Shown here: positions 15,272-64,000 of the stretch, one piece after another
How the letters are laid out: every line of letters starts with the position of its first letter
Position numbering within the stretch: position 1 is the first letter of the stretch
Source: Bacilli bacterium
GTDB lineage: Bacteria > Bacillota_I > Bacilli_A > RFN20 > CAG-288
Assembly (NCBI GenBank): GCA_022647725.1
Contig: JALCLG010000001.1
Location: 66,931-130,930, forward strand
Direction: 5' to 3'
Length of the DNA: 64,000 bases
Position numbers and translations under genes: made by a program
The notes under the pieces: generated by a model
The model's input: the letters and a program-made list of their open reading frames with translations, nothing else
What the model was told of the DNA's origin: nothing
Database searches by the model: none

Positions 15272-17071
15272 CTAGTCGAACCAGCTGCCGAAGTTGAGAT
15301 TGGCGATGGAGATCTTGTCTTCGCTATCGACGGAAGACGTGGTCTTGAAGAGATCCTTGTAGTTGGTCTTCATGTAGGTAAGGAAGGCATCATCGGAGTA
15401 GCTGATCTTGGTCCGACGGAGCCAGTAGATGGCGCTATCGGTCTTGTAGGTGCCGGTCGTCGACATCGCATAGGCGATCTGACGGGCAAAGTAAGCTTTC
15501 TGATCCGCCGAGTACATGGAATCGGTATTGGTCGTGGAGAGCGAGGACGAGGAAGCCACATCGAGGATCCGGACCAGGTAATAGGTCTTGGAAGAGGAAT
15601 CGTAGTAGATGATGTTATCAGTATCGGAACCGTTGAGGGTGCCGGTCTTGGTGACATAGCGGAAGCCATCCTTCTCATAGACGGTGATGGAATCCTTCGA
15701 GGTATCCGGATTGGCCTTCATATAGGTGATGTCATCGGCAGACGTCGTCATATCCAAGGAGAAGACACGTTCCTTGAGGGCTGTCGGTAAGGAAGAAAGA
15801 CCATCGCTCTTCAGGTAGACGCCCTTGGTGACTAAGCTCTTGGTGGCAATATCATCGATGGCCTTGCGGACACCGGTGGCAATATCGTAGGTGTAGCTGC
15901 CCGTATACGTCGACTCCAGCGTGGTATCGGCCTTGTTGAGATCAGCAATGCCCTTGTCGAGCGTATCCTGATCCTTGGTGACCTTGCCAGCCAGCGTGTA
16001 GTTGTTCTGACGGACATCGTCGCCGATCAGACCGTTGGTCTTGAGCCAGGCCTTCTCGTCATCGGTCAAGACGACGGAAGTGCTGTTGCGGGTGCCGTTG
16101 ACTAAGCCATAACGCTTCTCGAGATCCGCATCCGTATCGGTGGTAGAGACGCCATCGATCACATCCTTGCTGATACCCTTCCAAAGACGGGAGAGCACCG
16201 AGAAGTCCTTATCGGTGCCAACCAGGTTGGTGACCGTGCCGCTGCCCTTGATGTAATCGCGGACATAAGCATCCAGCAGCTTCTTGGCCGAACCGATGGC
16301 CTGTTCATCGCTGCGATCGGTCAAGGCAATCACCTGCACGTTGCGGGCATTGCTGTTGCCGATGGCGGAATAGGTCTTGTTGTAGATGTATTCGGAGGTA
16401 AGGTAATTGATCTGCATATCCTCATAGAGGGAATTCTTGAAGTAGTACTGATAACGGGTGATGTTATCGTTGTTCTTGCTGTCCGTGCCATAGATGTTGT
16501 CGTAGGTCATGAAAGGGGTCACGAGCAGACCATTAAGGTCATTGAGGGTGACGTCGGCATTGCCGGCGCCTAAGGTGAAGTTCTCTTTGAGCGAGGTGAG
16601 GAATTTGTTTTCGTAGAAGAGGTTGTCTTTGGCGTAAGTGCCGTTACGGGAGGTCGATTCCATGGAAAGCTTGGCACGGTTCTGCAGGTTCTCGTTCTTG
16701 GCGGATAAGGTGGGAAGGGTGGTGCTGTCTAAGACGGACGAGGCCGTGATGGCATCGCTGGAGACAGCATTGACGTTGGTGCCGGTCTTGGTCGTGGCAT
16801 CATAGTTATGGGCTTCGGAGGCAATGGCCAGAAGAATCTGGTTGACGGCTTCCTTGTAGACGCCCTCGGTCGAAAGAACGTTCTTGTAGTACTGTTCCTT
16901 GTTGTTCTCGACGACCGTCACTGCCTTATCGGCAGCAAAGGTATCGACATCGCTGTACAAGGTCGAATTGTAATCGGTAGGATACTTGATCTTGGTGGTG
17001 GAGCAGGAAGCCAGAGTCAGCATGGCTAAGGCTAAAAGACTTGTCGCAATACGATGATTACTTCTTGACAT
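15272..17071 (-). CDS. large secreted lipoprotein, function unknown
   Basis: Start at ATG 17071, preceded by GAGGAGGAA. Signal peptide with lipobox LTLASC. S/T/N/D-rich mature part. Confidence 0.75.
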   Translation of the reverse strand: MSRSNHRIATSLLALAMLTLASCSTTKIKYPTDYNSTLYSDVDTFAADKAVTVVENNKEQYYKNVLSTEGVYKEAVNQILLAIASEAHNYDATTKTGTNVNAVSSDAITASSVLDSTTLPTLSAKNENLQNRAKLSMESTSRNGTYAKDNLFYENKFLTSLKENFTLGAGNADVTLNDLNGLLVTPFMTYDNIYGTDSKNNDNITRYQYYFKNSLYEDMQINYLTSEYIYNKTYSAIGNSNARNVQVIALTDRSDEQAIGSAKKLLDAYVRDYIKGSGTVTNLVGTDKDFSVLSRLWKGISKDVIDGVSTTDTDADLEKRYGLVNGTRNSTSVVLTDDEKAWLKTNGLIGDDVRQNNYTLAGKVTKDQDTLDKGIADLNKADTTLESTYTGSYTYDIATGVRKAIDDIATKSLVTKGVYLKSDGLSSLPTALKERVFSLDMTTSADDITYMKANPDTSKDSITVYEKDGFRYVTKTGTLNGSDTDNIIYYDSSSKTYYLVRILDVASSSSLSTTNTDSMYSADQKAYFARQIAYAMSTTGTYKTDSAIYWLRRTKISYSDDAFLTYMKTNYKDLFKTTSSVDSEDKISIANLNFGSWFD

Positions 17072-53900: not shown

Positions 53901-54490
53901 GTATCTTCGATGATCGGAATTAGTGCTTCCGGGGCAAAGACGTTGGGAAGAGCATATGGGCTGGCATTGTACTGGGTTCCCGGATCCTTGGCTAAGGTGA
54001 CCTTATTGGTCTTCAGGTCATATTCCCATAGAGTAAGATTGCCTTCCTGAACGGCATTTTCATAAAGCTGATTGGTCTGGAGGAGTTCCTGCCGCTCTTT
54101 GACCATGCTATCGATATCATCGAAGATGGCATAGAAGCGTTCGCTCTGATCCGGCAGGGTGACATGACTGGCCCGGGCCGAGACCCAAAGATAACCCATA
54201 TCCTTGGAAAGGACACGGATCCGTAAGAAGAAAGGGCGATTTTCCTTGATGCTGTCATAGCCTTCCTTCAGGAAAGGCTTGCGGTCATCCGGATGGAGCG
54301 CTTCTAATACGTGTTTTTCAAGATACCCGTGCTCGGAACGGAGCTCGTGGGCCATCTGGTAGTAGCCTTCGTTGAGATAACGGACGATGACTTGGCCGTT
54401 GACCAAATCAAAAACACCCATTCCGGTCGGAATGGCATCCGTCAGTTCTCGCTCAAAAGGATTGCTCCTACCGTCGTCAGACATCCTCAT
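50906..54490 (-). CDS. multi-PAS hybrid sensor histidine kinase/response regulator
   Basis: 1194 aa. Reiterated PAS-like segments, H-box SHDIRTP, N/G boxes (GTGLGLSIVKKL), C-terminal receiver ILLVEDNEIN...DIQMP. Confidence 0.9.
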   Translation of the reverse strand: MRMSDDGRSNPFERELTDAIPTGMGVFDLVNGQVIVRYLNEGYYQMAHELRSEHGYLEKHVLEALHPDDRKPFLKEGYDSIKENRPFFLRIRVLSKDMGYLWVSARASHVTLPDQSERFYAIFDDIDSMVKERQELLQTNQLYENAVQEGNLTLWEYDLKTNKVTLAKDPGTQYNASPYALPNVFAPEALIPIIEDTCVSDYLDLFKKVRQGEASASTEIWLKPTETLARRCDRISLVTAFNGDGDPIGAKGIGQNITEAVIKSTVVNRLTEKNYDYIGILHVSDGTLRLVASKTGPVDIMAKEQTLDQVRDLASAKLHSVQGVDDFLEETSVSKVVSQLKHSDHYDYVLHCVVDGNEKAKRMNYVWMDETHRSILVTQEDVTESYLQQRKELEKQAKVRQQKQQIAGLEKTINSLPAGIAVVKKAENSLKIVMVNRSLCQLLKAQEKTLLSMPFDQLVKVGIYPDDYDTVMTGLARLFSDANATSYVYRTKEEGQDRYHWIRAEGRAFIEMDGSKTGYVIFTDTSGEKQLEEEFARKIQGLSFNSANVLNIVHLNLTQNQCLEEQTLPQYASRVQGLTTADEYFAQCLRHLLGDEDRQRCQDILNRQSLLALFEAGKSEVSCDFRILDPQSHEARWVKAYLNTARNPMTGDTETSVSCVDSQDALLAEQIFGLITKAEFDYIAIVRLEGETMEMIYEKPTVGFPFTHQRVKYSQRADYVSKTFLDVEEQKYYSAMTNLQTVVGELYKKDSFTFSYRRTLADGSLSCIEAHYHWLNKEAGEILLLTTDVTATYLRQQKTVQQLQDALIEAEKASTAKSEFVSRISHDIRTPISIIKSMTDFATQDKNDPVKLSDDLKKIEVSNTFLLSLINDVLDVSKIDAGKIKLSPEPYSYQEFLSNVRNMLEPLCDQKHLKFTVKEDVNTKTILVDKTRLNQIVLNLLTNSVKYTPAGGSIFFASGTRPLNGRQVMGYLEIKDTGIGMSPDFQKVMFDPFTQEHDNPLRDRTTTGTGLGLSIVKKLVDLMGGTITVKSALGKGSDFVVSFPLDKVDQNLAVSHTTPLDQVLSAKPLKGNILLVEDNEINVEIAKRFLAVLGLSVVKAENGKAALTTFEESKPHTYQAILMDIQMPIMNGYEATQAIRQLKREDATTIPIIAMTADAFSTAIEHAKQVGMNDYITKPIDVAKLRETLAHYLP

Positions 54491-54587
54491 CCCCCCTTGC
54501 TACGACAGGAAAGCGTCTAATACATTAGCTTCAGTTATTATATCCTACTTTTCACTTTGCTTTTATAGTTTTTTGACGGAACCATCG

Positions 54588-55331
54588 CTAAAAAACAAAA
54601 TTGGCTTTTTCTTTCATTAGGTTAAGAAAACGTTCTTTGGTCTCGTTGGCCTTGCGGCGGCTCATCGGGATGGTCTTGCCGTTGGTCAGAAGAATGTCGT
54701 CATCGCGGATAACGCTGATGAAACGATAGTTGACCATCACGCCTTTGTAGCAGGTGATGAAGCCATAGTCATCCAGTTCCTCTTCCAGCTTATTCATCGT
54801 GGAGGCCATCACATAAGGTTCCGGCTGGTCTTTGACATAGACCAGCTGATTCTTGCGTGAGCCTTCGATCCGGATCACATTGTCTAACGGGATGGCAATC
54901 GACTGTCCCCGGGTTGTGATGATGATCTGCTTCGGGGCTTCCTTGGTCTGAAGATCAAGGAACTGCTGAATGACTTTTGTGATATCGGTCAGGAAATTGC
55001 TTTTACGGATAAAACCGAAAGGATGGCTATCCAAAGAGTCAAAGACTTTGTCTTCCCGGTTGGACACGAAGATAATCGGAATCGCATTTCCTTTGGCCCG
55101 GAGATTCTTGCTGAAGGTGATGCCATCCATCTGCGGCATATCGATATCCAAAAAGAGCAGATCGAAGATGCTCGTCTCCATGGATGTGGCTAAAACCCGC
55201 ACATCAGAGAAAGGAACCGTCTCCGTCAGGACGCCATGACTGCGGAAGATGGAGTTAATTGAACTGGCCAGAATGTCCAGGGTGGCGGTGTTGTCATCGC
55301 AGATAGCAATTCGCATTTTCAGGGTCGGCAT
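54588..55331 (-). CDS. LytTR-family response regulator
   Basis: 247 aa. Receiver domain (IAICDD...DIDMP) plus a LytTR DNA-binding C-domain. GGAGGA 6 nt upstream of ATG 55331. Confidence 0.9.
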   Translation of the reverse strand: MPTLKMRIAICDDNTATLDILASSINSIFRSHGVLTETVPFSDVRVLATSMETSIFDLLFLDIDMPQMDGITFSKNLRAKGNAIPIIFVSNREDKVFDSLDSHPFGFIRKSNFLTDITKVIQQFLDLQTKEAPKQIIITTRGQSIAIPLDNVIRIEGSRKNQLVYVKDQPEPYVMASTMNKLEEELDDYGFITCYKGVMVNYRFISVIRDDDILLTNGKTIPMSRRKANETKERFLNLMKEKANFVF

Positions 55332-56662
55332 ATCGATTCCTCCTTGGGCTGAAGACTGGCCTGTGGCAAGGCCAGCATCACTTTGGCAACAAAGCAGTCG
55401 TCAACGACATCGAACGTGGCCAGGCCTTGATACTTCTGACTGACCGCACGGATGATCTTGGTCCCATAGCCGTGGTTGAAGCGTTCCTTTTTCGTCGACT
55501 TCAGACGCAAGGCTTTCTCTTTGGTGTTGCCTTCGGCCAGCGGATTGCGGATGACGATGACCAGGTAGTTGCCCTGATAGGTGAACTCCCCTTGAACTGA
55601 CTTTTCTTTCTGCTGGCACTGGCTCGTCTCTTCAATGGCATTGTCCAGCAGATTGGCAACCAGCGAAACCAGGTCGCTTTCCTCGATGGCTAGCTTAGAG
55701 GGGACAACCGCTTTGACCGTCAGGCTGACTCCTTTGCTTTCGGCTTTGGACTTCTCCAGATTCAGGATGCGGTTCAGAGCCTCATTGCCGCAATCGAAGT
55801 AGTCGACGGCAAAGTGGACTTTTTCCGAGAGATCGGAAAGATAGGTTTCCAGTTTTCCGTATTCTTTTTCCTTGACCAACTGATTGAGATACTCGAACTG
55901 ATTCTTGATATCGTGACGGATACGGTGCATTTCCTCATATTTGGAGTTGGAGACTTCCAGCTGGTTCTTCTCACTCTCGGCCTTCAAGGCAACAGCCTGG
56001 GAATCAATCACCTGGTTGTAACTGGCGATGGTCAGGAAGAAGAGCACATAAGCCAAGGTATCCAGAATAAGAAGGAAGGTACTTAAAAGGCCTTGATAAA
56101 GCTGGGTTTCTTTGGGATCCAGAAGGATTTCGCTGACAATGGGGATGATGTAGGAGACCAAAAGGATGCCATTGAGAATCAATAAGGAGCTCTTCTTGAC
56201 ATACTTGTATTTCCGGACGGACAGGGTCTTGAGGAGCAGCATCACGCTGACCACGACTGCAATCAGCAAATAGCTGGTAAGGTCGTTATAGACACTGCCT
56301 AAGCTGGCCCCGCTGGCTACCAGAACCAGAAAACCGAAGCTTCCAGATAACAGCAAATCCATGATCAGGAAGATAGAAGTGAAGGAAGCAATTGTCAGAC
56401 GTAAGGAGAGCCGGGTAGGCTTCCGCGGATAGAGAACATGAAGGAAACAGACAATCAGCCAGAGATAATACTTGGAATAAGGAAGGACGGAATCTGCCAC
56501 TCCCACTGTATTGAAGAACCAAAAATTGAAATCGGCAATGAAGAGCTGTGCCAGGAAAACGCAGGCGGTATCAATAAAGATTCGCAGAACGAATTTCCAG
56601 CTCTTCTCGAAGTCATTGAACATCAAGGCAACGACCAAACTGAAAAGGACAGCCGTTACCAC
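55319..56662 (-). CDS. AgrC/ComD-like (HPK10) GHKL sensor histidine kinase
   Basis: 447 aa with about 6-7 N-terminal TM spans. H-box RHDIKNQ, N-box NLLDNAIEE, G-box GYGTKI. GTG start without an obvious SD, so the start is uncertain. Confidence 0.8.
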   Translation of the reverse strand: MVTAVLFSLVVALMFNDFEKSWKFVLRIFIDTACVFLAQLFIADFNFWFFNTVGVADSVLPYSKYYLWLIVCFLHVLYPRKPTRLSLRLTIASFTSIFLIMDLLLSGSFGFLVLVASGASLGSVYNDLTSYLLIAVVVSVMLLLKTLSVRKYKYVKKSSLLILNGILLVSYIIPIVSEILLDPKETQLYQGLLSTFLLILDTLAYVLFFLTIASYNQVIDSQAVALKAESEKNQLEVSNSKYEEMHRIRHDIKNQFEYLNQLVKEKEYGKLETYLSDLSEKVHFAVDYFDCGNEALNRILNLEKSKAESKGVSLTVKAVVPSKLAIEESDLVSLVANLLDNAIEETSQCQQKEKSVQGEFTYQGNYLVIVIRNPLAEGNTKEKALRLKSTKKERFNHGYGTKIIRAVSQKYQGLATFDVVDDCFVAKVMLALPQASLQPKEESICRP

Positions 56663-56843
56663 GAAGGTAGGACCGAAAGCGAGGTGAAGATAATAGTCAA
56701 TGAAATATTCAAAAAAATTTATATGTTTCCTTATATTTTACCACTGAAAGAAGCATTCCGTTGGTATTTTATCAAGGAAGCAAAGGTTTGCAGATAGAGT
56801 CCTGATCAAAGAATCCGTTTGGTGACTTTCGAAGGGCAGGAAA

Positions 56844-58469
56844 TCAGGCTTTGTGAGTCTTGAAATCTTTCTGCCCGTCATAGAAGCCCATATTTTCAGG
56901 TCGCGTCGGATAGAGAGTATTGTATGTGCCTCCCGAAGGGAAGCCGACCGTTCCTAAGACAGTGTTGCTGACATAGGTCCGCACTTTTGAGAAAAGATGA
57001 CGTTCATCCTGATAACTCAGGCTTGCCTTATCCAGGCTTATCGGACCCGGCTTTTCACAGAGATCGGCCATTTCATGAAGATAGACGGCACCCCGAGTCA
57101 ACGAGGTGGTGACCGTAAGGGATTTGCCGGTCTTCAGCTTTTCCTGAATCGCCAGCAAGGTTCCCAAAGCCAAAATGAAGCCCGGGAAATAATCCAGCGG
57201 CACGCCATTAAGATTCTTCGGTTCAGCCAAGGAACCGTTGCGGACACTGAGGCCGGTGATATCCTCCGCTAACGGCGCCCAGCCCGGGCGTTCCTTCCAG
57301 ACGGAATCCGAGAAGCAGTTGAGATTGGCATAGATCACATGCGGATTGAGCTTCCGGATGGCATCCGGAGACAGCCCGAATTTGTCAAAGCAGCCGTTCT
57401 GATAGGAATAGGTGATGACATCCGCTTCCTTGATCAGTTCCTTCATCCGGTCCAGCTGTTCCGGAATGTTCAGATCCAGCTGAATGGAGTTCTTGCCAGC
57501 CCAGCCATCCAATTCCAGCATAGCCTGTTCCTGGGACAGGAAATTGCCACGCCGGACCAAAAGAACATCAGCGCCATATTCGGCTAAGATCCGCGAGCAG
57601 GCCGGGCCGGCAATGATATGGGTGAGGTCCAATACCTTGATGCCGGAAAGCGGTCCTTGGGAAGTGGTTCTTCCCCAATTAGGTAAAAGCGTCTCTCCTT
57701 TGTCTTCAAAACGGACGAGCGGCATGGCCATCACGGCCTTGCCGACAGCGGTGGCTTCCCACTCCTCACGGCTGCGGATCAGACAGCCGCAGGCGCCGGA
57801 GCTGAAAGCCAGATCCTCGAGCTCCTGTCCGGAATAATTCCGGAAGAACTTATTAAGATAATGCCGATCAAAAGGCGTGGAAGTGAAGGTAAACTTCTCG
57901 GATGCCTTCTTAAGATGGAGGGCCTCCACCAGCTTTTTCTGCTGGGACTGGTAATAGACATGGAACGACACTTCCCGGCCGTCCTTGGTGGGGTATTTGT
58001 AGAAAGAGCCATTGAGAGCATTGTCGACACGGATGGCCGACGCCGACCGTGCCTTCTTGAAATCCTTGTCCTGATAGTCAGCCAAATAAAGACGGATGGC
58101 CTGAGCACCGCTATAGGCAACATCGGTGGTGATCATCGGAACCTCGTGACTCTGGTCCCGTAAGATGCCAATCGAGGTAGCGACACTGGAGCAGCAGGTC
58201 AGAACGGCAGCAATGGCCGCCGTCTGAGGAATGGTCTCCGGTTCGAAGAGACGGGTGATGGCTTTCTTCCGTAAGGAGGTCAGCACCAGCGACAGAATTC
58301 CCGGGAAGGGATTCTCTTTGCTGGCCGAGGCCATGAACTCTTCCTGACGTTTCGGGTCTACAAGGAAGGTTGTCGGATAGGTCTGCTGAATCTGAAAACG
58401 CTGCAGCAGATCCTCGTAAATACGGATGGCATCGTTGGCCTTTTTGACCATAATATCATTGGTTTCCAT
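56844..58469 (-). CDS. family III CoA-transferase (CaiB/BaiF-like) with a ~270-aa N-terminal extension
   Basis: 541 aa. GIKVLDLTHIIAGPACSRILAEYGADVLLV Rossmann-like signature begins only at about residue 285. Confidence 0.7.
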   Translation of the reverse strand: METNDIMVKKANDAIRIYEDLLQRFQIQQTYPTTFLVDPKRQEEFMASASKENPFPGILSLVLTSLRKKAITRLFEPETIPQTAAIAAVLTCCSSVATSIGILRDQSHEVPMITTDVAYSGAQAIRLYLADYQDKDFKKARSASAIRVDNALNGSFYKYPTKDGREVSFHVYYQSQQKKLVEALHLKKASEKFTFTSTPFDRHYLNKFFRNYSGQELEDLAFSSGACGCLIRSREEWEATAVGKAVMAMPLVRFEDKGETLLPNWGRTTSQGPLSGIKVLDLTHIIAGPACSRILAEYGADVLLVRRGNFLSQEQAMLELDGWAGKNSIQLDLNIPEQLDRMKELIKEADVITYSYQNGCFDKFGLSPDAIRKLNPHVIYANLNCFSDSVWKERPGWAPLAEDITGLSVRNGSLAEPKNLNGVPLDYFPGFILALGTLLAIQEKLKTGKSLTVTTSLTRGAVYLHEMADLCEKPGPISLDKASLSYQDERHLFSKVRTYVSNTVLGTVGFPSGGTYNTLYPTRPENMGFYDGQKDFKTHKA

Positions 58470-58694
58470 GGTTTGAAGCTCCTTTGGCTTAGCTTGCTTT
58501 GATTATAACCTATTTGACCTTGCTTTCAGCTAGGAAAACAGCGTTGAAGATAAGGAGACGTTGAAAGACGTCAAGGAAAAGAGAAGACTTTGTTTTTCCG
58601 GAAAAGCCTATGGTAGACTTGAAGCGCGAGGAAATTCTTTTGGGTCTGGAGATAATCTCTCCTCCTCAGTAAGAATCAAAGGGTTTTCAGGAAC

Positions 58695-60185
58695 ATGACT
58701 TTACAGGATTGTCTTATCGCCTACGATGAGAAAACACCCAGCCATGTTTTTTTACGCGATGAAAAGGAAAGCTACACGATTCATGAGACGAGACTCTTTG
58801 TGGAAAATTTCACCCGGAGTCTCTCTTCCTCTGGCATCCAAGCCCAGGATCTGGTGGCTTTGAAAGCCGACCGCACCAAAGAGACCTTCCTTCTTTTCTT
58901 AGCCTTGCAGGCCCTGGGTGCTATTTCCTTACTGACGGATGCCCATTTATCCATCCAAGACTATCTTGCCAAAGAGAAAATCCATTTAAAGCCGGCTTTC
59001 CAGATTGAAAAGGATAGCCAGGGTCAGCTGAGGCTTTCGGATACGAAAGGTCATCAGGTTCCTTTGATCTTCTCCCAGAAAACAAATCCAGATGCTAAAC
59101 CTTTCTCTGAAATCTGTTCCCAGGACGGCTCGGTCGGAACGATTCTGATTCATACCTCCGGATCGACCGGCAAAGCCAAAGGTGTCTTCCTGTCCCAGGA
59201 AGCCTTCATCCGCAATTCTCAGGACACCTTTGCCTTAGCCGATTACCGTCCGGATGATGTGGCCTTAGCCTTTTTGCCTTTTCATCATGTCTTCGGCCTG
59301 GCTTTAGGCATCACGGCCTTAGTCAACCAGCATTCTCTTTTCTTCCCCTCGGTCACGGACCCCTTAGCGTTAGTGAAAGCCATTCAGACCTATGGCGTCA
59401 CCCGGATGAACGGCGTCCCAACCCTGTATCTGGATATGGCCAAAGCCAAAACAGAGAATCATCTGCCGTTAACCTGTCTCCGGACTGGTCTGATCGGCGG
59501 CGGTCCCTGGACCGAAAGCCAGTTCGGCTGGATCGAAAAGACCTTAGGCATCCATCTGATTCCGGTCTATGGCATGAGCGAATGCATCGCCATCAGCTGC
59601 GGACGGAGCCAGGATCCCTTGACGTACCGTCAAGGCTCCGTGGGTCCGTTCTATCCCCAGAACGAAGGCCTTTTCCTCGGGCCGGACGGAAGCCGTCTTC
59701 CCTTAGGTCAGACCGGCGAGATTGCCGTTAAGAGTCCGTTCATGATGACGGACTATTATCAGGATCCGGAAGAGACGAAAGCCTGTTTCACCAAGGATGG
59801 GTATCTGCTGACCGGTGATCTCGGTTATCTGGATAAGCTTGGCTTCCTGCATCTCTGTGGCCGGCGCAAGGACCTGATCATCCGGGCCGGAGAGAACATT
59901 GCTCCGTTAGCGGTTGAAAACGCCCTCTTATCCTTAGACGGCATTGAGCAGGCCTGTGTCTTCGCTGTCCCTTCTTTCCGGCTAGGAGAGAAGGTCAGCT
60001 GTGCCGTGGTTCTGAAGAAAGGCTCTTCGTTGACGGTCCGTCAGATTCAGGAGGCCTTAAAGCCGTTACTCACCAAGAATGAGATTCCGGAAACCATCCA
60101 TCTGCTTGGTAAGCTTCCTCTGCTGGCTAGCGGCAAAGTCGATAAGCAGTCCCTCAAAGAGACCTACGCGGCCGATGGAAAATAG
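58695..60185 (+). CDS. AMP-dependent acyl-CoA synthetase/ligase
   Basis: 496 aa. AMP-binding motif IHTSGSTGKAKGV, GDLG...D core and a C-terminal GK(V)D. Confidence 0.9.
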   Translation: MTLQDCLIAYDEKTPSHVFLRDEKESYTIHETRLFVENFTRSLSSSGIQAQDLVALKADRTKETFLLFLALQALGAISLLTDAHLSIQDYLAKEKIHLKPAFQIEKDSQGQLRLSDTKGHQVPLIFSQKTNPDAKPFSEICSQDGSVGTILIHTSGSTGKAKGVFLSQEAFIRNSQDTFALADYRPDDVALAFLPFHHVFGLALGITALVNQHSLFFPSVTDPLALVKAIQTYGVTRMNGVPTLYLDMAKAKTENHLPLTCLRTGLIGGGPWTESQFGWIEKTLGIHLIPVYGMSECIAISCGRSQDPLTYRQGSVGPFYPQNEGLFLGPDGSRLPLGQTGEIAVKSPFMMTDYYQDPEETKACFTKDGYLLTGDLGYLDKLGFLHLCGRRKDLIIRAGENIAPLAVENALLSLDGIEQACVFAVPSFRLGEKVSCAVVLKKGSSLTVRQIQEALKPLLTKNEIPETIHLLGKLPLLASGKVDKQSLKETYAADGK

Positions 60186-60590
60186 GACGTTTTGCTGAAA
60201 ATAGTTGATTTGCCAATTGAATAACGCCTGGCTAAATGATATATTTTTAGTTGCCTTTGCCTCTGTGTTGAAATTGGTATACAAGGCGGATTCAAAAGAA
60301 ACTCAAAAGAGTCTCGGGTCGCCAAAAACGCAATTTCAAAAAAGCCCGATATCATCGAACTTATTGAGATTACGCCAAACGAGGGCTGAGTGGAAAAAGC
60401 CACTAAAATGGCAAAATTACCCCTAAATTTCCACTCAAATGACTAAAAGCAGGGTCGAATTTACCTGAAATCAGTCAAAAAATAGGGGTGTTCAGAAAAA
60501 TTCGGATGTGACTGATTCGGTTCGTGTTGGTTCGTTAACACTTAAAAGAGTTTCGCTCCAAAAAAATGGTAGTGGAGCGCTGTATAAGTG

Positions 60591-60599
60591 TGATAGAAT
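60591..60599 (+). promoter_or_regulatory. extended -10 element upstream of tRNA-Leu
   Basis: TGaTAGAAT, 9 nt before the mature tRNA 5' end. No good -35. Confidence 0.4.
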
Positions 60600-60608
60600 C
60601 TCACTTAT

Positions 60609-60694
60609 GCAGGTGTGGCGTAATGGCAGCCGCGACAGACTCAAAATCTGTTGAACGTGAGTTCGTGAGGGTTCAACTCCCTCCACCTGCACCA
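60609..60694 (+). tRNA. tRNA-Leu (anticodon CAA)
   Basis: 86 nt. Acceptor GCAGGUG/CACCUGC, anticodon loop CUCAAAA, long variable arm, T-loop UUCAACU, CCA. Confidence 0.9.
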
Positions 60695-60707
60695 GATTTA
60701 AAGACCT

Positions 60708-60744
60708 AACCTCTTAGCTTAAACAACTAGGAGGTTTTTGTTTT
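60708..60744 (+). terminator. hairpin plus T-run after tRNA-Leu, overlapping the SD of the next gene
   Basis: AACCTC-n17-GAGGTT followed by TTTTGTTTT. The 3' arm is part of the AGGAGG SD of the AP2 gene. Confidence 0.45.
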
Positions 60745-61560
60745 ATGGATAAAGAAAAAGATTATGAGCATCGTCATTTGGGTTATGACCGTTATAAAGG
60801 AACAAGAATCAGCCAGATTGACCCTAACAGGCAATTATCAAGGCTTAATAAGTCTGGATGCTCTGGAGTCAGTTGGGACTCTAAATTCAATATGTGGAAG
60901 GCTCACTTCCGTTTTCAAGGAGTTCATTACTGGGTTGGAAGATTCGCGGAACTTGATGATGCTATAAAAGCCACAAAAGAAAAGAAGGAGGCATTGTACT
61001 CATTAGTTCTTTCTGAGCATCCAGTAAAAACAAAGGCAAGTATAAAGCATCTTCCTGGAACTACTATTGTTGACCTTACGGGTGTGAAGAAACCTCATTA
61101 TGAAGTCATCAAGTTTGCCGGAAGAGACAGAACCACATGTAGATGGGTTTGCAGATGTGAGTGTGGAAATACCTTTATAGCTACTTCCTCAGAGATTAAA
61201 AATGACAAAATAATATCTTGTGGGTGTGTGAGTGAAGAACGAAAGACTTATTCGTATCATCTATTCAGCAATTACAAAGATATCTTTGTCGATGGCACTA
61301 ACCTTTATAGCATGAATAAGAATGTCCCTTATTTAAGCAATGAGACATCTAAAGTCAGAGGCGTATATAAGCCAAGAAGAGGATCATGGTACGCAAAACT
61401 AACTTTTCAAGGTGTAGACCATCGCATTAAATGTGCTACAAAAGAAGAAGCTATAAAAGCCAGGGCAAGATTAGAGCAAGAGTATTACCTTCCTTTTATG
61501 AAGAAACATAGAAAAATCATGACTAAAGTAAAAAGAGCAGAAAGAAGTATGGTAAGATAA
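60745..61560 (+). CDS. double AP2-domain protein with a central CxCxCG...SCGC zinc ribbon
   Basis: 271 aa. AP2-like blocks SGVSWDSKFNMWKAHFRFQGVHYWVGRFAELDDAIKA and VRGVYKPRRGSWYAKLTFQGVDHRIKCATKEEAIKA. Cys cluster CRWVCRCECGN...SCGC. Confidence 0.75.
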   Translation: MDKEKDYEHRHLGYDRYKGTRISQIDPNRQLSRLNKSGCSGVSWDSKFNMWKAHFRFQGVHYWVGRFAELDDAIKATKEKKEALYSLVLSEHPVKTKASIKHLPGTTIVDLTGVKKPHYEVIKFAGRDRTTCRWVCRCECGNTFIATSSEIKNDKIISCGCVSEERKTYSYHLFSNYKDIFVDGTNLYSMNKNVPYLSNETSKVRGVYKPRRGSWYAKLTFQGVDHRIKCATKEEAIKARARLEQEYYLPFMKKHRKIMTKVKRAERSMVR

Positions 61561-61687
61561 ATATGCGTCATCTAGAGGGCGTATGACCTTTGGCCATTTG
61601 GTGTTAGCAATAACAATCACGTGTTTCATGCAGGATCCTAAGGCACGTTAAATGTTAGTGTCCTGGTGTGCATCACCTTAAAGGCAG

Positions 61688-61728
61688 AAGCCTTGTTGAG
61701 CTTATGTTTGATAAGGCTTTTATTTTTT
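61688..61728 (+). terminator. candidate terminator after the AP2 gene
   Basis: AAGCCTT-n18-AAGGCTT followed by TTATTTTTT. Confidence 0.45.
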
Positions 61729-61768
61729 AAAAAAATAGTAAAAAAACTATGTATTCCAACGATAAAAG

Positions 61769-61777
61769 TGCTATAAT
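61769..61777 (+). promoter_or_regulatory. perfect extended -10 promoter for the XRE/helicase pair
   Basis: TGcTATAAT, 28 nt upstream of ATG 61806. Confidence 0.6.
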
Positions 61778-61805
61778 CATGCTATAAGTCAATTAGAGGT
61801 TAAAT

Positions 61806-62024
61806 ATGAACTGGGCAAAACTCTTAAAAGATGTACGAACAATACTTGTTTTAACCCAAACAGAGATGGCAAATTATCTCGGTGTATCTTTTGCTTCGGT
61901 AAATAGATGGGAAAATGGGCATTGCGAACCAACTATGAAGGTAAAACGCAAACTTAAACAAGTTTGTAAAGATAATAATTTAAGCTTTGAATCTTATTTT
62001 TTGATTCAACCGGAAAGAAAATAG
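61806..62024 (+). CDS. XRE-family helix-turn-helix regulator
   Basis: 72 aa. LTQTEMANYLGVSFASVNRWENG HTH. AGAGGT SD upstream. Confidence 0.8.
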   Translation: MNWAKLLKDVRTILVLTQTEMANYLGVSFASVNRWENGHCEPTMKVKRKLKQVCKDNNLSFESYFLIQPERK

Positions 62025-62033
62025 GGTGGAACA

Positions 62034-64000
62034 ATGGCTTCATTTATAGACAACAAAACCAAATTACTTGGAGATGATTTGAAAAGTGACATTACTGTTG
62101 GAAGCAAAGTGCAAATAGTTGCTTCTTATTTTTCAATCTACGCTTACCAAGCATTAAAAGAAGCCCTAAAAGATATTAATGAGTTTGATTTCATCTTCTC
62201 TGAGCCCACATTTGTTGAAAATGAGATAAAGGGCTCTTTTAAGAAAGAAGCAAAAGAATTTTTCATCCCAAAGCAATTCAGAGAAAACGCCTTATATGGA
62301 ACCGAGTTTGAGATAAAACTTAGAAACCAAATGACGCAAAAGGCTATAGCGAAAGAATGCGCCGACTGGATTAAAGAAAAAGCGCATTTTAAGTCAAATA
62401 CATCCGATTCTAAGTTGCCCAATTTTATATCTGTTGATAATGGAATATCTAAAGCGGCTTATACAGGAATAGAAGGACTAAGTGCTTCTGATCTTGGGTA
62501 TGAACATAACGATAATCTTTATACAATCATTCAAAAAAGTGAAAATGATGAAACATCAAAGCATTTGTTTGAGTTATTTAATAAATTAAATCAGGATTCA
62601 CAGACTTTTAAGGATGTAACAGATTCTATAGTTGATTACATTTCTAATGTTTATAAAGAGAATCCGCCTTCCTTCATTTATTTTGTTACTCTTTATAATA
62701 TTTTCTCTGAATTTTTAGATGACTTGTTAAGTGAAGATTATATGCCTAATGACTTAACAAATTACAAAGATTCGATTGTTTGGAAAAAGCTATATGCGTT
62801 TCAAAGGGATGGAGCAGTTGGAGTAATAAACAAATTAGAAAAATACAACGGTTGCATTCTTGCTGATTCTGTTGGCTTAGGAAAAACTTTCACTGCTTTA
62901 GCAGTAATGAAATATTATTCAAATCGAAATAAGAATATTTTAGTTCTTGCCCCAAAAAGACTATCTGATAACTGGGCTCAGTATAAAAACAATGTTAAAA
63001 CAAACCTTTTCTATAATGACCATATTAGGTTTGATCTTCTTTATCACACTGATTTAGGGAGAAAAACCGGCAAGTCTGGTGACATCGATTTATCACAATT
63101 CAATTGGGGCAATTATGACTTAATTGTTATCGATGAGTCTCATAATTTCAGAAATGTCGGGCAATATAGAGATAGAGAGACAAGATACGATTTTCTCTTA
63201 AAGCATGTTATTGAGGAAGGCGTGAAAACAAAAGTGTTAATGCTTTCCGCCACCCCTGTAAACAACAGGTTTACGGATTTAAAAAACCAGTTGGCTTTAG
63301 CTTATGGCGAAAATCCAACCGAATTTGACGATAAACTTGATACCGCTAAAGGTGTTGACCTTGTTTTAAGAAATGCTCAAAGGGTGTTTAATGAATGGAG
63401 CAAATTGCCAAAAGCACAGCGTCATTCCAAAGACCTAATGGATAGATTAGATATTGATTTTTCAATCTTATTAGACAATGTGACAATCGCAAGAAGCAGA
63501 AAACATATTACCAAATACTATGATATGTCTGAAATTGGCAGCTTCCCAAAAAGGAAAACGCCTATTTCCTATTATATTGATGTTGCCGATAGAAGCGAGA
63601 CAATTGGATACAACGAACTGTTTGATAATTTGATGCAACTTACACAAGCTGTTTATGCTCCTATGGACTATATTCTTCCAAGCAGGTTGAAAAAATATGA
63701 AGAAAAATATGATGTTAAAGTAGGTAACGCTACTTTAAAACAAGTCAATCGTGAAAAAGCTCTTCAGCGACTTATGACAATAAATCTTTTGAAGAGACTC
63801 GAATCTTGTGTGGATTCATTTAGAATCACTCTAAAGAAAATTGCTTCCGTAAATGAAGATACTTTAAAAGCCATTCTTGCTTTCAAAAATAAAGAAAGTT
63901 TTGACCAGTCACATGATTTTTCAAACATCGATGTTGATGAATACGATAATGAAGAAGATTTCGACATCGATGAAGATAGTGGAACTTTAGGCAAAGTAAA
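62034..64000 (+). CDS. SNF2-family helicase with a ~260-aa N-terminal PLD/HKD-pattern region (3'-truncated by the window)
   Basis: Hand translation is open from ATG 62034 to the window end (655 codons) and is missing from the ORF track because it has no stop. Motif I LADSVGLGKT, motif II VIDESHNFRN, motif III LMLSATPVNN. N-terminal VQIVASYFSIY and an HFKSNTSD (HxKxxxxD) pattern. Confidence 0.8.
   Translation, partial: MASFIDNKTKLLGDDLKSDITVGSKVQIVASYFSIYAYQALKEALKDINEFDFIFSEPTFVENEIKGSFKKEAKEFFIPKQFRENALYGTEFEIKLRNQMTQKAIAKECADWIKEKAHFKSNTSDSKLPNFISVDNGISKAAYTGIEGLSASDLGYEHNDNLYTIIQKSENDETSKHLFELFNKLNQDSQTFKDVTDSIVDYISNVYKENPPSFIYFVTLYNIFSEFLDDLLSEDYMPNDLTNYKDSIVWKKLYAFQRDGAVGVINKLEKYNGCILADSVGLGKTFTALAVMKYYSNRNKNILVLAPKRLSDNWAQYKNNVKTNLFYNDHIRFDLLYHTDLGRKTGKSGDIDLSQFNWGNYDLIVIDESHNFRNVGQYRDRETRYDFLLKHVIEEGVKTKVLMLSATPVNNRFTDLKNQLALAYGENPTEFDDKLDTAKGVDLVLRNAQRVFNEWSKLPKAQRHSKDLMDRLDIDFSILLDNVTIARSRKHITKYYDMSEIGSFPKRKTPISYYIDVADRSETIGYNELFDNLMQLTQAVYAPMDYILPSRLKKYEEKYDVKVGNATLKQVNREKALQRLMTINLLKRLESCVDSFRITLKKIASVNEDTLKAILAFKNKESFDQSHDFSNIDVDEYDNEEDFDIDEDSGTLGKV

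What the first reader, a model, noticed from the sequence alone, without database searches (positions are those of the whole stretch)
60695..64000. AT-rich island starting exactly at the tRNA-Leu(CAA) 3' end with phage/defence-type cargo, cut off by the window
For about 60 kb the window is housekeeping DNA at roughly half G+C. From the base after tRNA-Leu the sequence becomes visibly AT-rich (about one-third G+C by eye) and codons switch to A/T endings. The genes also change character. They are a double-AP2 plus zinc-ribbon DNA binder, a 72-aa XRE switch-like regulator with a perfect TGcTATAAT promoter, and 9 nt later a very long SNF2 helicase ORF. tRNA 3' ends are classic integration sites. 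No integrase or att repeat is visible on this side, so the integrase, any partner genes (methylase, nuclease, ATPase) and the right boundary must lie beyond 64000. This is the most likely place for an undescribed system, but only its first genes can be seen.
Basis: partly seen in the sequence, partly recalled or inferred. Interest (0 to 1): 0.75.

Follow-up and report, generated by a model that had tools for sequence, protein, structure and literature searches.

The report
Conjugative element that replaces host tRNA-Leu
The AT-rich stretch is the left end of a 40-48 kb conjugative element that inserts into the anticodon loop of the host's tRNA-Leu(CAA) gene, destroys it, brings its own replacement tRNA and carries swappable anti-phage defence genes; this insertion strategy has so far been described only for a few phages.

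Summary
The G+C drop is real: 0.52 before the island, 0.35 inside it. The three genes are as described. The boundary is not.

Island-free strains of the same species carry an intact, different tRNA-Leu(CAA). In the window only its first 39 nt survive (60259-60297). The island therefore starts at 60298, and the tRNA-Leu at 60609-60694 is carried by the island.

Near-identical contigs show the rest, a 40-48 kb integrative conjugative element (ICE):
- a defence cargo slot holding XRE, an SNF2 helicase, DUF4391, two type III Mod genes, Res, a PHP-ATPase and Hachiman;
- relaxase, coupling protein and a VirB4-like ATPase;
- excisionase and a tyrosine integrase;
- attR.

attL, attR and attB share only GGATTCAAAA, and no tRNA is rebuilt at either junction. 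This matches phage "tRNA-dependent lysogeny" (Guerrero-Bustamante and Hatfull 2024), here in an ICE.

Junctions from a second host rebuild the same attP but use a second core 11 nt away.

The cargo systems are known kinds, although the widespread SNF2-DUF4391 accessory to type III restriction-modification is uncharacterised.

The parts
60217..60245 (+). Promoter-like site of the native (host) tRNA-Leu(CAA) gene. It is still present upstream of the truncated gene.
   Evidence: TTGAAT-17-TATATT with TG, from the consensus scan. It lies 14 nt upstream of the native tRNA start defined in island-free strains. Function is inferred.
60259..60297 (+). 5' fragment (nt 1-39 of 87) of the host's native tRNA-Leu(CAA). 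It is cut at the 3' edge of the anticodon loop.
   Evidence: Island-free strains L191, L192, L196 and L198 are 99.5-100% identical to the window up to 60297. They carry the full 87-nt tRNA there. No tRNA is detected here in the window.
60288..60297 (+). attL copy of the 10-bp common core GGATTCAAAA (3 nt of anticodon stem plus the 7-nt loop).
   Evidence: This is the only sequence shared by attB (L191/L211), attL (window) and attR (L213, L221).
60298..64000 (+). Left 3.7 kb of the integrative conjugative element. The element runs on for about 40-48 kb in near-identical contigs.
   Evidence: G+C is 0.353 against 0.518. This DNA is absent from island-free strains. It is shared at 93-97% with elements in two other hosts, starting at 60301.
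60301..60308 (+). Second, alternative att core ACTCAAAA. It is part of an imperfect palindrome, GAAACTC-AAAA-GAGTCTC, at 60298-60315.
   Evidence: In hosts L185/L224 and L003 the crossover is at this core. attL and attR of L185/L224 rebuild exactly the attP that the window species' junctions rebuild.
60388..60436 (.). Two candidate arm-type integrase sites, TTCCACTC, at 60388-95 (-) and 60429-36 (+).
   Evidence: Two of the window's three matches lie here. The same 8-mer occurs 3-4 times, clustered 140-205 nt from the core, in the other arm. L213 has 4 matches against 0.79 expected, and 0 of 100 shuffles reach 4. Binding is inferred.
60591..60599 (+). Extended -10-like TGATAGAAT, 9 nt upstream of the element's tRNA.
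   Evidence: Read and retained in the deletion variant L195. Function is inferred.
60609..60694 (+). Element-borne tRNA-Leu(CAA), 86 nt, with A73 and an encoded CCA. It is the replacement for the disrupted host gene.
   Evidence: ARAGORN and Rfam both call it. It matches the native tRNA only at scattered positions when aligned. It is 86/86 identical in all 17 fetched loci that hold the element's left end, including L185 and L003 from two other hosts (the contig of L209, the BREX-cargo variant, also has a tRNA-Leu(CAA) at this position), although the adjacent spacer differs at 3-5%.
60745..61560 (+). 271-aa AP2 / 4-Cys zinc ribbon / AP2 DNA-binding protein. It is a conserved left-end gene of the element.
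   Evidence: It is present in every variant of the element. It is a paralogue (34% identity, E 1e-20) of the 204-aa gene next to the integrase at the other end.
61662..61721 (+). Left edge of the variable cargo slot. Homology to other variants ends at about 61661, followed by a terminator-like hairpin at 61686-61721.
   Evidence: See (boundaries; hairpin).
61769..61777 (+). Extended -10 TGCTATAAT in front of the XRE gene.
   Evidence: Read. Function is inferred.
61806..62024 (+). 72-aa XRE-type HTH protein, the first gene of the cargo operon and probably its regulator.
   Evidence: HTH_3 at 1.2e-6. An XRE also lies upstream of the SNF2 gene in the two closest related loci, L012 and L066.
62034..64000 (+). 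First 655 of 1089 aa of an SNF2-family ATPase with an N-terminal extension (PADLOC 'HKD+Snf2'). It is the first enzyme of an SNF2-DUF4391-Mod-Mod-Res operon.
   Evidence: PADLOC C3a139 scores 3e-56 for the part in the window and 2.5e-105 over the full length. SNF2-rel_dom and ResIII match. The rest of the operon is seen in L001, which is 99.8% identical over 54001-64000.

Best explanation
The window ends 3.7 kb into an integrative conjugative element (ICE) of an uncultured 'Bacilli bacterium'.

How it integrates. A tyrosine integrase at the far end, with an excisionase-like partner, recombines the element's attP with the anticodon stem-loop of the host tRNA-Leu(CAA) gene. The shared core is only 10 bp (GGATTCAAAA). 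Integration therefore splits the host tRNA, and neither junction rebuilds it. The element makes up for this with a complete tRNA-Leu(CAA) gene of its own, which lies 311 nt inside attL and has its own promoter-like site. The attP holds a second core (ACTCAAAA) 11 nt from the first. That core is the one used in hosts whose tRNA-Leu has C instead of T at loop position 32.

Cargo. Between a conserved left module (tRNA plus the AP2/zinc-ribbon gene) and the conjugation module there is a slot holding different defence sets in different copies. In this lineage it holds XRE, an SNF2 helicase, DUF4391, two type III Mod genes, Res, a PHP-ATPase and Hachiman.

Shown by sequence: the junctions, the core, the absence of rebuilt tRNAs, the gene content and the existence of empty sites.

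Inferred: that the element's tRNA is expressed and compensates, that the TTCCACTC repeats are arm sites, and that the element still transfers.
For: Empty sites. Four island-free contigs of the same species are 99.5-100% identical to the window up to 60297. They carry an intact 87-nt tRNA-Leu(CAA), followed by GNAT, PocR-kinase and Opp genes at G+C 0.53.

Right end, on the same 527-kb contig as an occupied left end (L193/L213). In order: VirB4-like ATPase, ArdC-N, an excisionase-family protein (TIGR01764, 32 bits against a cut-off of 28.8), a 440-aa Phage_integrase (1e-19) and attR, which is followed by the missing 3' part of the native tRNA. The element is 39,769 bp there.

No rebuilt tRNA. 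None is detected at attL or at attR in two hosts.

A single attP. The same attP sequence is rebuilt from the junctions of two host species that use different cores.

Conjugation genes. MobL relaxase; a VirD4-like coupling protein of the CD1115 family (302 bits against a cut-off of 250); weak matches to pilin-like and MMCAP2_0566-like proteins.

Three alternative cargo sets lie between the same conserved borders.

The element's tRNA is invariant across hosts.

The published phage phenomenon has the same defining features (PMC10865867).
Against: - Everything beyond 64000 comes from other assemblies. They are 99.1-99.8% identical to the window where they overlap (96-97% for the variants L005 and L008), and strains differ in cargo.
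- No circular attP junction or transfer event was observed.
- Whether the host has another tRNA-Leu(CAA), or a tRNA-Leu(UAA) that could read UUG, is unknown, so dependence on the element's tRNA is unproven.
- Some copies look decayed: the 271-aa gene is frameshifted in L199 and L195, an IS cuts the element in L003, and it is truncated in L203.
- The relaxase and several conjugation proteins score below NCBIfam cut-offs.
- An 18-kb stretch of the 527-kb contig was not read directly.
Confidence: 0.85

Rival explanations
1. A classic genomic island or prophage integrated at the 3' end of tRNA-Leu(CAA). The tRNA at 60609-60694 would be the host gene and its 3' segment would be duplicated at the far end.
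For: The tRNA directly precedes the first island gene, and G+C falls around it.
Against: Island-free strains have a different tRNA-Leu(CAA), and homology stops at 60297, inside it. The 60609 tRNA and 308 nt upstream of it travel with the element in other hosts. attR carries the native tRNA's 3' part, not a repeat of the 60609 tRNA. No phage structural genes were seen.
Confidence: 0.02
2. The element's tRNA is not a compensating replacement. Instead it supplies UUG decoding for AT-rich element genes, or counters tRNA-targeting defences. Under this view, loss of the host tRNA is harmless because other tRNA-Leu species cover UUG.
For: TTG makes up 17% of Leu codons in island ORFs and 11% in host ORFs. 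The phage paper raises the anti-defence idea. Host tRNA redundancy is unknown.
Against: The codon shift is small: 13.9 against 11.5 per thousand codons. The tRNA has exactly the isotype and anticodon of the gene the element destroys, in three host backgrounds. It sits at the att site rather than among cargo and is invariant.
Confidence: 0.2
3. The copy in this window is a fixed, no longer mobile remnant that now serves only as a defence island.
For: Decayed copies exist: frameshifts in L199 and L195, IS truncation in L003, and a deletion in L203.
Against: Occupied and empty sites coexist within one series of consecutively numbered samples (3300053040-3300053042) and differ by less than 1% in the flanks. 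The integrase, excisionase, relaxase, coupling protein and VirB4-like genes are intact in L181, L213 and L219-L221. The 271-aa gene is intact in the window.
Confidence: 0.15
4. A mobilizable or chimeric island assembled from unrelated pieces, so that the composite picture built from several metagenome contigs is misleading.
For: The element was pieced together from overlapping contigs of different samples. Assemblies often break at the core or in cargo (L219 ends at the core).
Against: Single long contigs hold both ends: Ga0530621_0019 (L193 and L213), Ga0455828_0014 (L185 and L224) and Ga0455823_0120 (L004 and L220). Consecutive NCBI accessions MCI1734219 to MCI1734254 between the two flanks fit the composite gene order; for example, the 18th gene is the pilin-like protein MCI1734236.
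Confidence: 0.03

Closest known systems
tRNA-dependent lysogeny of actinobacteriophages (Fionnbharth and other K4 and L cluster phages; Guerrero-Bustamante and Hatfull, mBio 2024, PMC10865867), and the Lj965 prophage of Lactobacillus johnsonii cited there
   Same: A tyrosine integrase. An attB inside a host tRNA gene. Only about 10 bp of common core. No functional tRNA rebuilt at either junction. [quoted passage not shown]
   Different: This element is conjugative (relaxase, coupling protein, VirB4-like ATPase), not a phage. The host is an uncultured Bacilli lineage. The target is tRNA-Leu(CAA). The attP appears to hold two alternative cores. A requirement for the tRNA has not been tested.
ICEBs1 (Bacillus subtilis) and TnSmu1 (Streptococcus mutans), ICEs that integrate into a tRNA-Leu gene (PMC3715440, PMC10098952; details from my own knowledge)
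   Same: Firmicute ICEs with a tyrosine integrase and excisionase that target a tRNA-Leu gene.
   Different: Those elements integrate at the 3' end and restore the tRNA with an identity segment. Here the anticodon loop is cut, nothing is restored, and a whole tRNA gene is supplied instead. Here the integrase is at the end away from the tRNA 5' part.
Defence hotspots inside ICEs and other mobile elements (for example SXT ICE hotspots, from my own knowledge; pipolins, PMC11551731)
   Same: A slot between conserved modules holds alternative defence sets: type III restriction-modification with Hachiman, GmrSD-like genes, or BREX with Hachiman.
   Different: A different element family, with a second small variable slot next to attR.
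Type III restriction-modification (EcoP15I type)
   Same: The Mod genes match PADLOC MTase_III (1e-185 and 1e-190). Res matches PADLOC REase_III (3e-297) and has ResIII plus RE_endonuc domains.
   Different: There are two tandem Mod genes. The operon is preceded by an SNF2-family protein and DUF4391, a combination conserved in 35 of 36 related loci and on E. coli plasmids, with no functional study found.
DISARM DrmD, and PADLOC 'HKD+Snf2' (C3a139)
   Same: An SNF2-family ATPase linked to a methylase. The PADLOC C3a139 model matches over the full length (2.5e-105).
   Different: The DrmD models match only the helicase core, far below cut-off (130 bits against 610). No DrmA or DrmB (DUF1998) is present. 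The partner is a type III Res/Mod pair.

Membership tests
tRNA-dependent integration (features that define tRNA-dependent lysogeny, PMC10865867) | Tyrosine-family integrase | tested here: met
   A 440-aa protein matches Phage_integrase (1e-19) and Phage_int_SAM_3 (8e-13), and sits next to an excisionase-family protein. It lies outside the window, on near-identical contigs.
tRNA-dependent integration (features that define tRNA-dependent lysogeny, PMC10865867) | attB overlaps a host tRNA gene | tested here: met
   In the empty sites the crossover falls at nt 30-39 of an 87-nt tRNA-Leu(CAA).
tRNA-dependent integration (features that define tRNA-dependent lysogeny, PMC10865867) | Only a short common core (about 10 bp) | tested here: met
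   GGATTCAAAA (10 bp) in the window species and ACTCAAAA (8 bp) in a second host.
tRNA-dependent integration (features that define tRNA-dependent lysogeny, PMC10865867) | No functional tRNA rebuilt at attL or attR | tested here: met
   ARAGORN and Rfam find nothing at attL. ARAGORN finds nothing at attR in L213, L221 and L224.
tRNA-dependent integration (features that define tRNA-dependent lysogeny, PMC10865867) | [quoted passage not shown] | tested here: met
   tRNA-Leu with the same anticodon, CAA, at 60609-60694.
tRNA-dependent integration (features that define tRNA-dependent lysogeny, PMC10865867) | The host tRNA is essential and the element's tRNA is needed for viable integrants | not testable with these tools
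   This needs the whole host tRNA set and genetics.
tRNA-dependent integration (features that define tRNA-dependent lysogeny, PMC10865867) | The element is a temperate phage | tested here: not met
   Conjugation genes are present, and no gene with a phage structural annotation was seen in about 40 kb. It therefore works like the phage case but is filed as an ICE variant.
Integrative conjugative element | Relaxase, coupling protein and VirB4-type ATPase | tested here: met
   MobL (Pfam); NCBIfam MobP2 scores 99 bits, below its cut-off of 200. The VirD4-like CD1115 family scores 302 bits against 250. An 861-aa protein has DUF87 and P-loop_TraG.
Integrative conjugative element | Site-specific recombinase, att sites and empty sites in relatives | tested here: met
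Integrative conjugative element | Excision and transfer shown | not testable with these tools
   No reads or experiments are available.
Type III restriction-modification | A Mod methyltransferase plus a Res helicase-nuclease in one operon | tested here: met
   See PADLOC MTase_III and REase_III. NCBIfam PRK15483 gives 358 bits, below its cut-off of 564. These genes lie outside the window.
DISARM | DrmA and DrmB (DUF1998) together with DrmD | tested here: not met
   No DUF1998 or DrmA gene is in the operon. The DrmD models match only part of the protein.
PLD/HKD nuclease domain at the SNF2 N-terminus | PLD fold with an HxKxxxxD motif | tested here: inconclusive
   HFKSNTSD can be read at about residues 117-124, and the PADLOC model is labelled HKD+Snf2. 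There is no Pfam PLD match, and the single-sequence model failed (pLDDT 35).
AP2 DNA-binding domain (271-aa protein) | A three-stranded sheet packed on a helix, matching AP2 profiles | tested here: inconclusive
   Pfam AP2 gives 16 bits against a cut-off of 33. PHROG HNH-AP2 families match at 4e-27. The model shows two sheet-plus-helix units. AP2 structures are among the weak fold matches, with probability up to 0.95 but E above 0.04. NCBI names the paralogue an 'AP2 domain-containing protein'.
Hachiman | HamA (DUF1837) plus the HamB helicase | tested here: met
   HamB scores 3e-261 and HamA 1e-88 in PADLOC. Both lie outside the window.

The most novel reading that the evidence does not exclude
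This ICE family uses a 'bring your own tRNA' strategy. It is free to destroy its tRNA target because it carries a replacement. Its attP holds two tandem alternative cores, so one element can enter hosts whose tRNA-Leu(CAA) anticodon loops differ at position 32. If the destroyed tRNA is the host's only UUG reader of that kind, the element's tRNA becomes indispensable to every integrant. Paralogous AP2/zinc-ribbon proteins encoded at both ends may be new accessory factors for this recombination.
Probability: 0.35. Interest if true: 0.75.

Novelty: new variant of a known kind. Interest (0 to 1): 0.6.

Why it matters
Integration into tRNA genes is usually explained by elements restoring the gene with an identity segment. 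The opposite solution, destroying the gene and supplying a whole new one, was recognised only in 2024, and only for phages. I found no report of it for a conjugative element in the held literature.

Finding it in an ICE has several implications:
- The strategy would not be tied to lysogeny.
- It would give tRNA genes on ICEs a concrete role.
- Target choice would need only about 10 bp of the conserved anticodon stem-loop, which could widen host range. The two-core attP points the same way.

There is also a practical warning. Island finders that anchor on tRNA 3' ends will misplace the boundary, as happened here, and will count the element's tRNA as a host gene.

Separately, the survey shows that SNF2-DUF4391 is a constant companion of one large clade of type III restriction-modification systems, including on E. 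coli plasmids, and has no known role. That makes it directly testable.

Tried and rejected
- Search for a repeat of the 60609 tRNA's 3' end in downstream loci: none found.
- Metagenome scan with Res: only 50-61% relatives. It was useful for the neighbourhood survey but not for extending the contig.
- Four scans of viral contigs (native tRNA 3' half, element tRNA, coupling protein, DUF8208 protein): no hits. The element is not in the viral collection.
It became possible after obtaining ids through cluster look-ups.
- A 3' tRNA fragment in L003, and an attR in the truncated copy L203: neither found.
- Structure of the SNF2 N-terminus from a single sequence: failed, pLDDT 35.
- Fold search with the whole 271-aa model: no significant match, only weak AP2 hits.
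- Codon-supply explanation for the tRNA: only a small effect.
- Literature: DUF4391 appears in two papers, neither functional. No relevant hit for 'TrlF'. No paper on an ICE with a compensating tRNA.
- DISARM membership: rejected because DrmA and DrmB are absent.

Full report
**1. The observation**

ARAGORN finds tRNA-Leu(CAA) at 60609-60694 on the + strand, and Rfam agrees at 56.6 bits. G+C is 0.45-0.56 in all thirty 2-kb windows up to 60000, then 0.39 and 0.33. It is 0.518 for 1-60297 and 0.353 for 60298-64000.

- The 271-aa ORF is at 60745-61560.
- The 72-aa HTH_3 protein is at 61806-62024, preceded by TGCTATAAT at 61769-77.
- The SNF2-family ORF starts at 62034, 9 nt after the XRE stop, and is open to the end of the window.

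The 271-aa protein has no Pfam hit above threshold; AP2 scores 16 bits against a cut-off of 33. PHROG families of HNH-AP2 endonucleases match its AP2 and zinc-ribbon parts at 4e-27, and no HNH domain is present. Four cysteines (C138, C140, C159, C161) are invariant. An AlphaFold model (pLDDT 81.7) shows two three-strand-plus-helix units flanking a ribbon. AP2 structures appear among weak fold matches.

**2. The boundary is elsewhere**

Looking up the flanking AMP-binding protein returned contigs of the same species, some with the island and some without.

The island-free contigs (L191, L192, L196, L198) are 99.5-100% identical to the window up to base 60297 and then diverge. At that point they carry an intact 87-nt tRNA-Leu(CAA). 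Its sequence differs from the tRNA at 60609, and it is followed by a terminator and by GNAT, PocR-kinase and Opp genes at G+C 0.53.

The window keeps only nt 1-39 of this native tRNA (60259-60297), cut at the 3' edge of the anticodon loop. Neither ARAGORN nor Rfam detects a tRNA there.

The island therefore begins at 60298. The tRNA-Leu(CAA) at 60609-60694 lies 311 nt inside it. Elements in two other host backgrounds (L185, L003) share DNA with the window from 60301 onward. Each is joined to the 5' half of a different native tRNA-Leu(CAA).

**3. What lies beyond 64000**

L001 is 99.8% identical to window 54001-64000. In L001 the operon continues with:
- the SNF2 protein, 1089 aa (PADLOC C3a139 'HKD+Snf2', 2.5e-105 over the full length);
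- DUF4391, 233 aa;
- two type III Mod genes (1e-185 and 1e-190);
- Res (3e-297).

Walking further through overlapping contigs gives:
- an 842-aa PHP plus AAA ATPase, TrlF-like at 208 bits (below its cut-off of 350) and Ppl-like at 1e-21;
- a 92-aa ORF;
- Hachiman on the opposite strand: HamB (3e-261), HamA (1e-88) and an HTH_26 protein.

The conjugation module follows:
- a small sigma-70 region-4 protein;
- a 170-aa ORF;
- a MobL relaxase;
- a VirD4-like coupling protein of the CD1115 family (302 bits against a cut-off of 250);
- a 1631-aa surface-type protein;
- a pilin-like protein;
- a DUF8208 / MMCAP2_0566-like membrane protein;
- a VirB4-like ATPase (DUF87 / P-loop_TraG);
- ArdC-N;
- a primase-polymerase-like protein;
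- several unknown proteins;
- an excisionase-family protein;
- a 440-aa tyrosine integrase.

**4. The right junction**

The right flank became reachable through cluster look-ups of the GNAT gene seen in the empty sites. On the 527-kb contig that also holds an occupied left end (L193), attR reads, in window orientation...CCAGCGTT[GGATTCAAAA]TCCACTGATAGC...GGCACCA. The second half is the missing 3' part of the native tRNA. A second strain gives the same junction (L221).

attB, attL and attR share only GGATTCAAAA, which is 60288-60297 in the window. ARAGORN finds no tRNA at attR. From the contig coordinates, the element is 39,769 bp on that contig. It is about 48 kb in a strain with extra genes before attR: a 1799-aa glycosyltransferase/SLOG protein, a PHP protein and a sugar dehydrogenase.

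NCBI accessions support the composite. The left-flank proteins and the XRE of the window are exactly MCI1734217, MCI1734218 and MCI1734220 ('MAG: Bacilli bacterium', a 2.08-Mb contig). Other assignments from the cluster look-ups are:

| Protein | Accession |
|---|---|
| Pilin-like protein | MCI1734236 |
| Excisionase-like protein | MCI1734249 |
| Integrase | MCI1734250 |
| GNAT (right flank) | MCI1734255 |

Consecutive numbering implies 36 genes between the flanks. That step is an inference.

**5. Two cores in one attP**

In the second host (L185 and L224, one 642-kb contig) the junctions are:
- attL: ...GCGTTGG[ACTCAAAA]GAGTCTCGGG
- attR: ...CCAGCGTTGGATTCAAAAGAA[ACTCAAAA]TCCAATG...GGGGCACCA

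No tRNA is detected there either.

Joining the element sides of these junctions gives ...CCAGCGTT GGATTCAAAA GAA ACTCAAAA GAGTCTCGGG.... This is exactly the attP rebuilt from the window species.

One attP therefore recombines at GGATTCAAAA with a tRNA whose loop starts with T32, and at ACTCAAAA, 11 nt away, with tRNAs that have C32. This explains the 11 'extra' bases at 60298-60308.

The 8-mer TTCCACTC occurs 3-4 times, clustered 140-205 nt from the core, in the integrase-side arm. L213 has 4 matches against 0.79 expected, and 0 of 100 shuffles reach that number. It occurs twice, 91-139 nt from the core, in the window. These are candidate arm-type sites; binding is inferred.

**6. The tRNA**

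The element's tRNA has the isotype and anticodon of the gene it displaces, A73 and an encoded CCA. An extended -10-like TGATAGAAT lies 9 nt upstream (read). It is 86/86 identical in all 17 fetched loci that hold the element's left end, including L185 and L003 from two other hosts, while the adjacent 308-nt spacer differs at 3-5%; the contig of L209, the BREX-cargo variant, also has a tRNA-Leu(CAA) at this position. The codon-supply alternative is weak: TTG is 13.9 per thousand codons in island ORFs and 11.5 in host ORFs.

These features match, point by point, the definition of tRNA-dependent lysogeny (PMC10865867):
- a tyrosine integrase;
- an attB inside a tRNA gene;
- a core of about 10 bp;
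- no tRNA rebuilt at either junction;

The differences are that this element is conjugative and that the need for the tRNA is untested. I found no ICE example in the held literature. Subscription journals are not covered.

**7. Cargo**

The conserved left module ends at about 61661, just before a terminator-like hairpin at 61686-61721. The conserved right module starts 174 nt upstream of the sigma-like gene. Between these borders different copies carry:
- the type III, PHP-ATPase and Hachiman set (this lineage);
- an IS plus a GmrSD-like protein, PDC-M30-like genes and an M78-HTH protein (L185);
- an HTH protein, type 1 BREX, an AAA_21 ATPase and Hachiman (L201, L209).

The slot is a defence hotspot inside an ICE, which is a known kind of arrangement.

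The first system is less ordinary. Among 80 loci with Res homologues at 50-61% identity, 35 of the 36 with enough upstream DNA have the SNF2 gene. In 36 of 41, a DUF4391-like ORF directly follows it. The same four genes sit on 141 plasmid records, including E. coli IncFIB plasmids, and are annotated only generically. DUF4391 has no functional literature in the held library. The N-terminal HKD/PLD assignment of the SNF2 protein could not be verified.

My working model for this cargo operon is inferred. XRE controls the operon. Mod/Res act as a type III enzyme. SNF2-DUF4391 add a second DNA motor, possibly with a nuclease, to it.

**8. Verdict**

The cargo is made of known kinds. The element itself is a new variant of a known kind: an ICE that destroys and replaces its tRNA target, apparently with a two-core attP.

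The structural conclusions rest on several independent junction sequences, and I give them a confidence of about 0.85. The functional steps (tRNA compensation, arm sites, current mobility) are inferred.

Noticed in passing
L011-L090 (metagenome loci); L200 = CP095457.1 1-15480 (E. coli plasmid pJH51-3): SNF2-family protein, DUF4391, Mod and Res form a four-gene module. It is conserved in 35 of 36 related loci and on 141 plasmid records across phyla. The regulator varies (XRE here, WYL on some plasmids). No functional study was found.
   Followed up: partly
L001 14144-18015, compared with L171, L002 and L004: There are two tandem type III Mod genes. Between strains the middle of the second one (about L001 16746-17359) is replaced, and Mod lengths vary (645/643, 664/630, 640/600, 486/630). 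This looks like swapping of the target-recognition domain. No simple-sequence repeats that would suggest phase variation were found.
   Followed up: partly
L213 11407-12021 (-); window 60745-61560: The 204-aa gene next to the integrase is a paralogue of the 271-aa left-end gene (zinc ribbon plus AP2; 34% identity, E 1e-20). In the circular form the two genes would flank attP. Their role is unknown.
   Followed up: partly
L224 14398-14470 and about 16111-16170: In the second host, two further 3' fragments of tRNA-Leu lie downstream of the element's attR, separated by short AT-richer stretches. They look like remnants of earlier integrations at the same tRNA.
   Followed up: no
L219-L221 (e.g. 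L221 6921-13950): There is a second variable slot between the 204-aa gene and attR. Some strains carry a 1799-aa glycosyltransferase/methyltransferase-like/SLOG (LDcluster4) protein, a PHP protein and a UDP-sugar dehydrogenase. Others carry a 375-aa ORF or a fragment of it.
   Followed up: no
window 60298-60562 compared with L195/L005: One strain lacks these 265 nt. The native tRNA fragment is fused directly to the region just upstream of the element's tRNA, between short CAAAA repeats. A core-like repeat, ACTTAAAAGAGTTTCG at 60540-60555, resembles 60301-60316.
   Followed up: partly
L005 4624-5173 and L181 4570-5119: A repeat of about 550 nt (99% identical) is inserted both in a host sensor-kinase region and inside HamB of the same strain. 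It is probably a small mobile element.
   Followed up: no
L003 11060-11869; L199 12091-12871; L203 6662: Some copies of the element are decayed. An rve-family IS cuts the SNF2 gene at codon 276 and the rest of the element is missing (L003). The 271-aa gene is broken into three ORFs (L199). One copy is truncated inside the 1631-aa gene (L203).
   Followed up: partly
L171 11913-14697: An 842-aa PHP plus AAA ATPase, related to TrlF and Ppl but below both family cut-offs, overlaps a 92-aa ORF that has no match in the family libraries searched (Pfam, NCBIfam, PADLOC, PHROGs). This may be a two-gene variant of a single-gene defence system.
   Followed up: no
L181 19495-20467; L213 19125-20237: Several conjugation proteins have their only matches, all weak, in NCBIfam families defined from Mycoplasma ICEs (Mbov_0395, MMCAP2_0566, Mbov_0389). 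This hints at a link between this element's transfer genes and those of mollicute ICEs.
   Followed up: no
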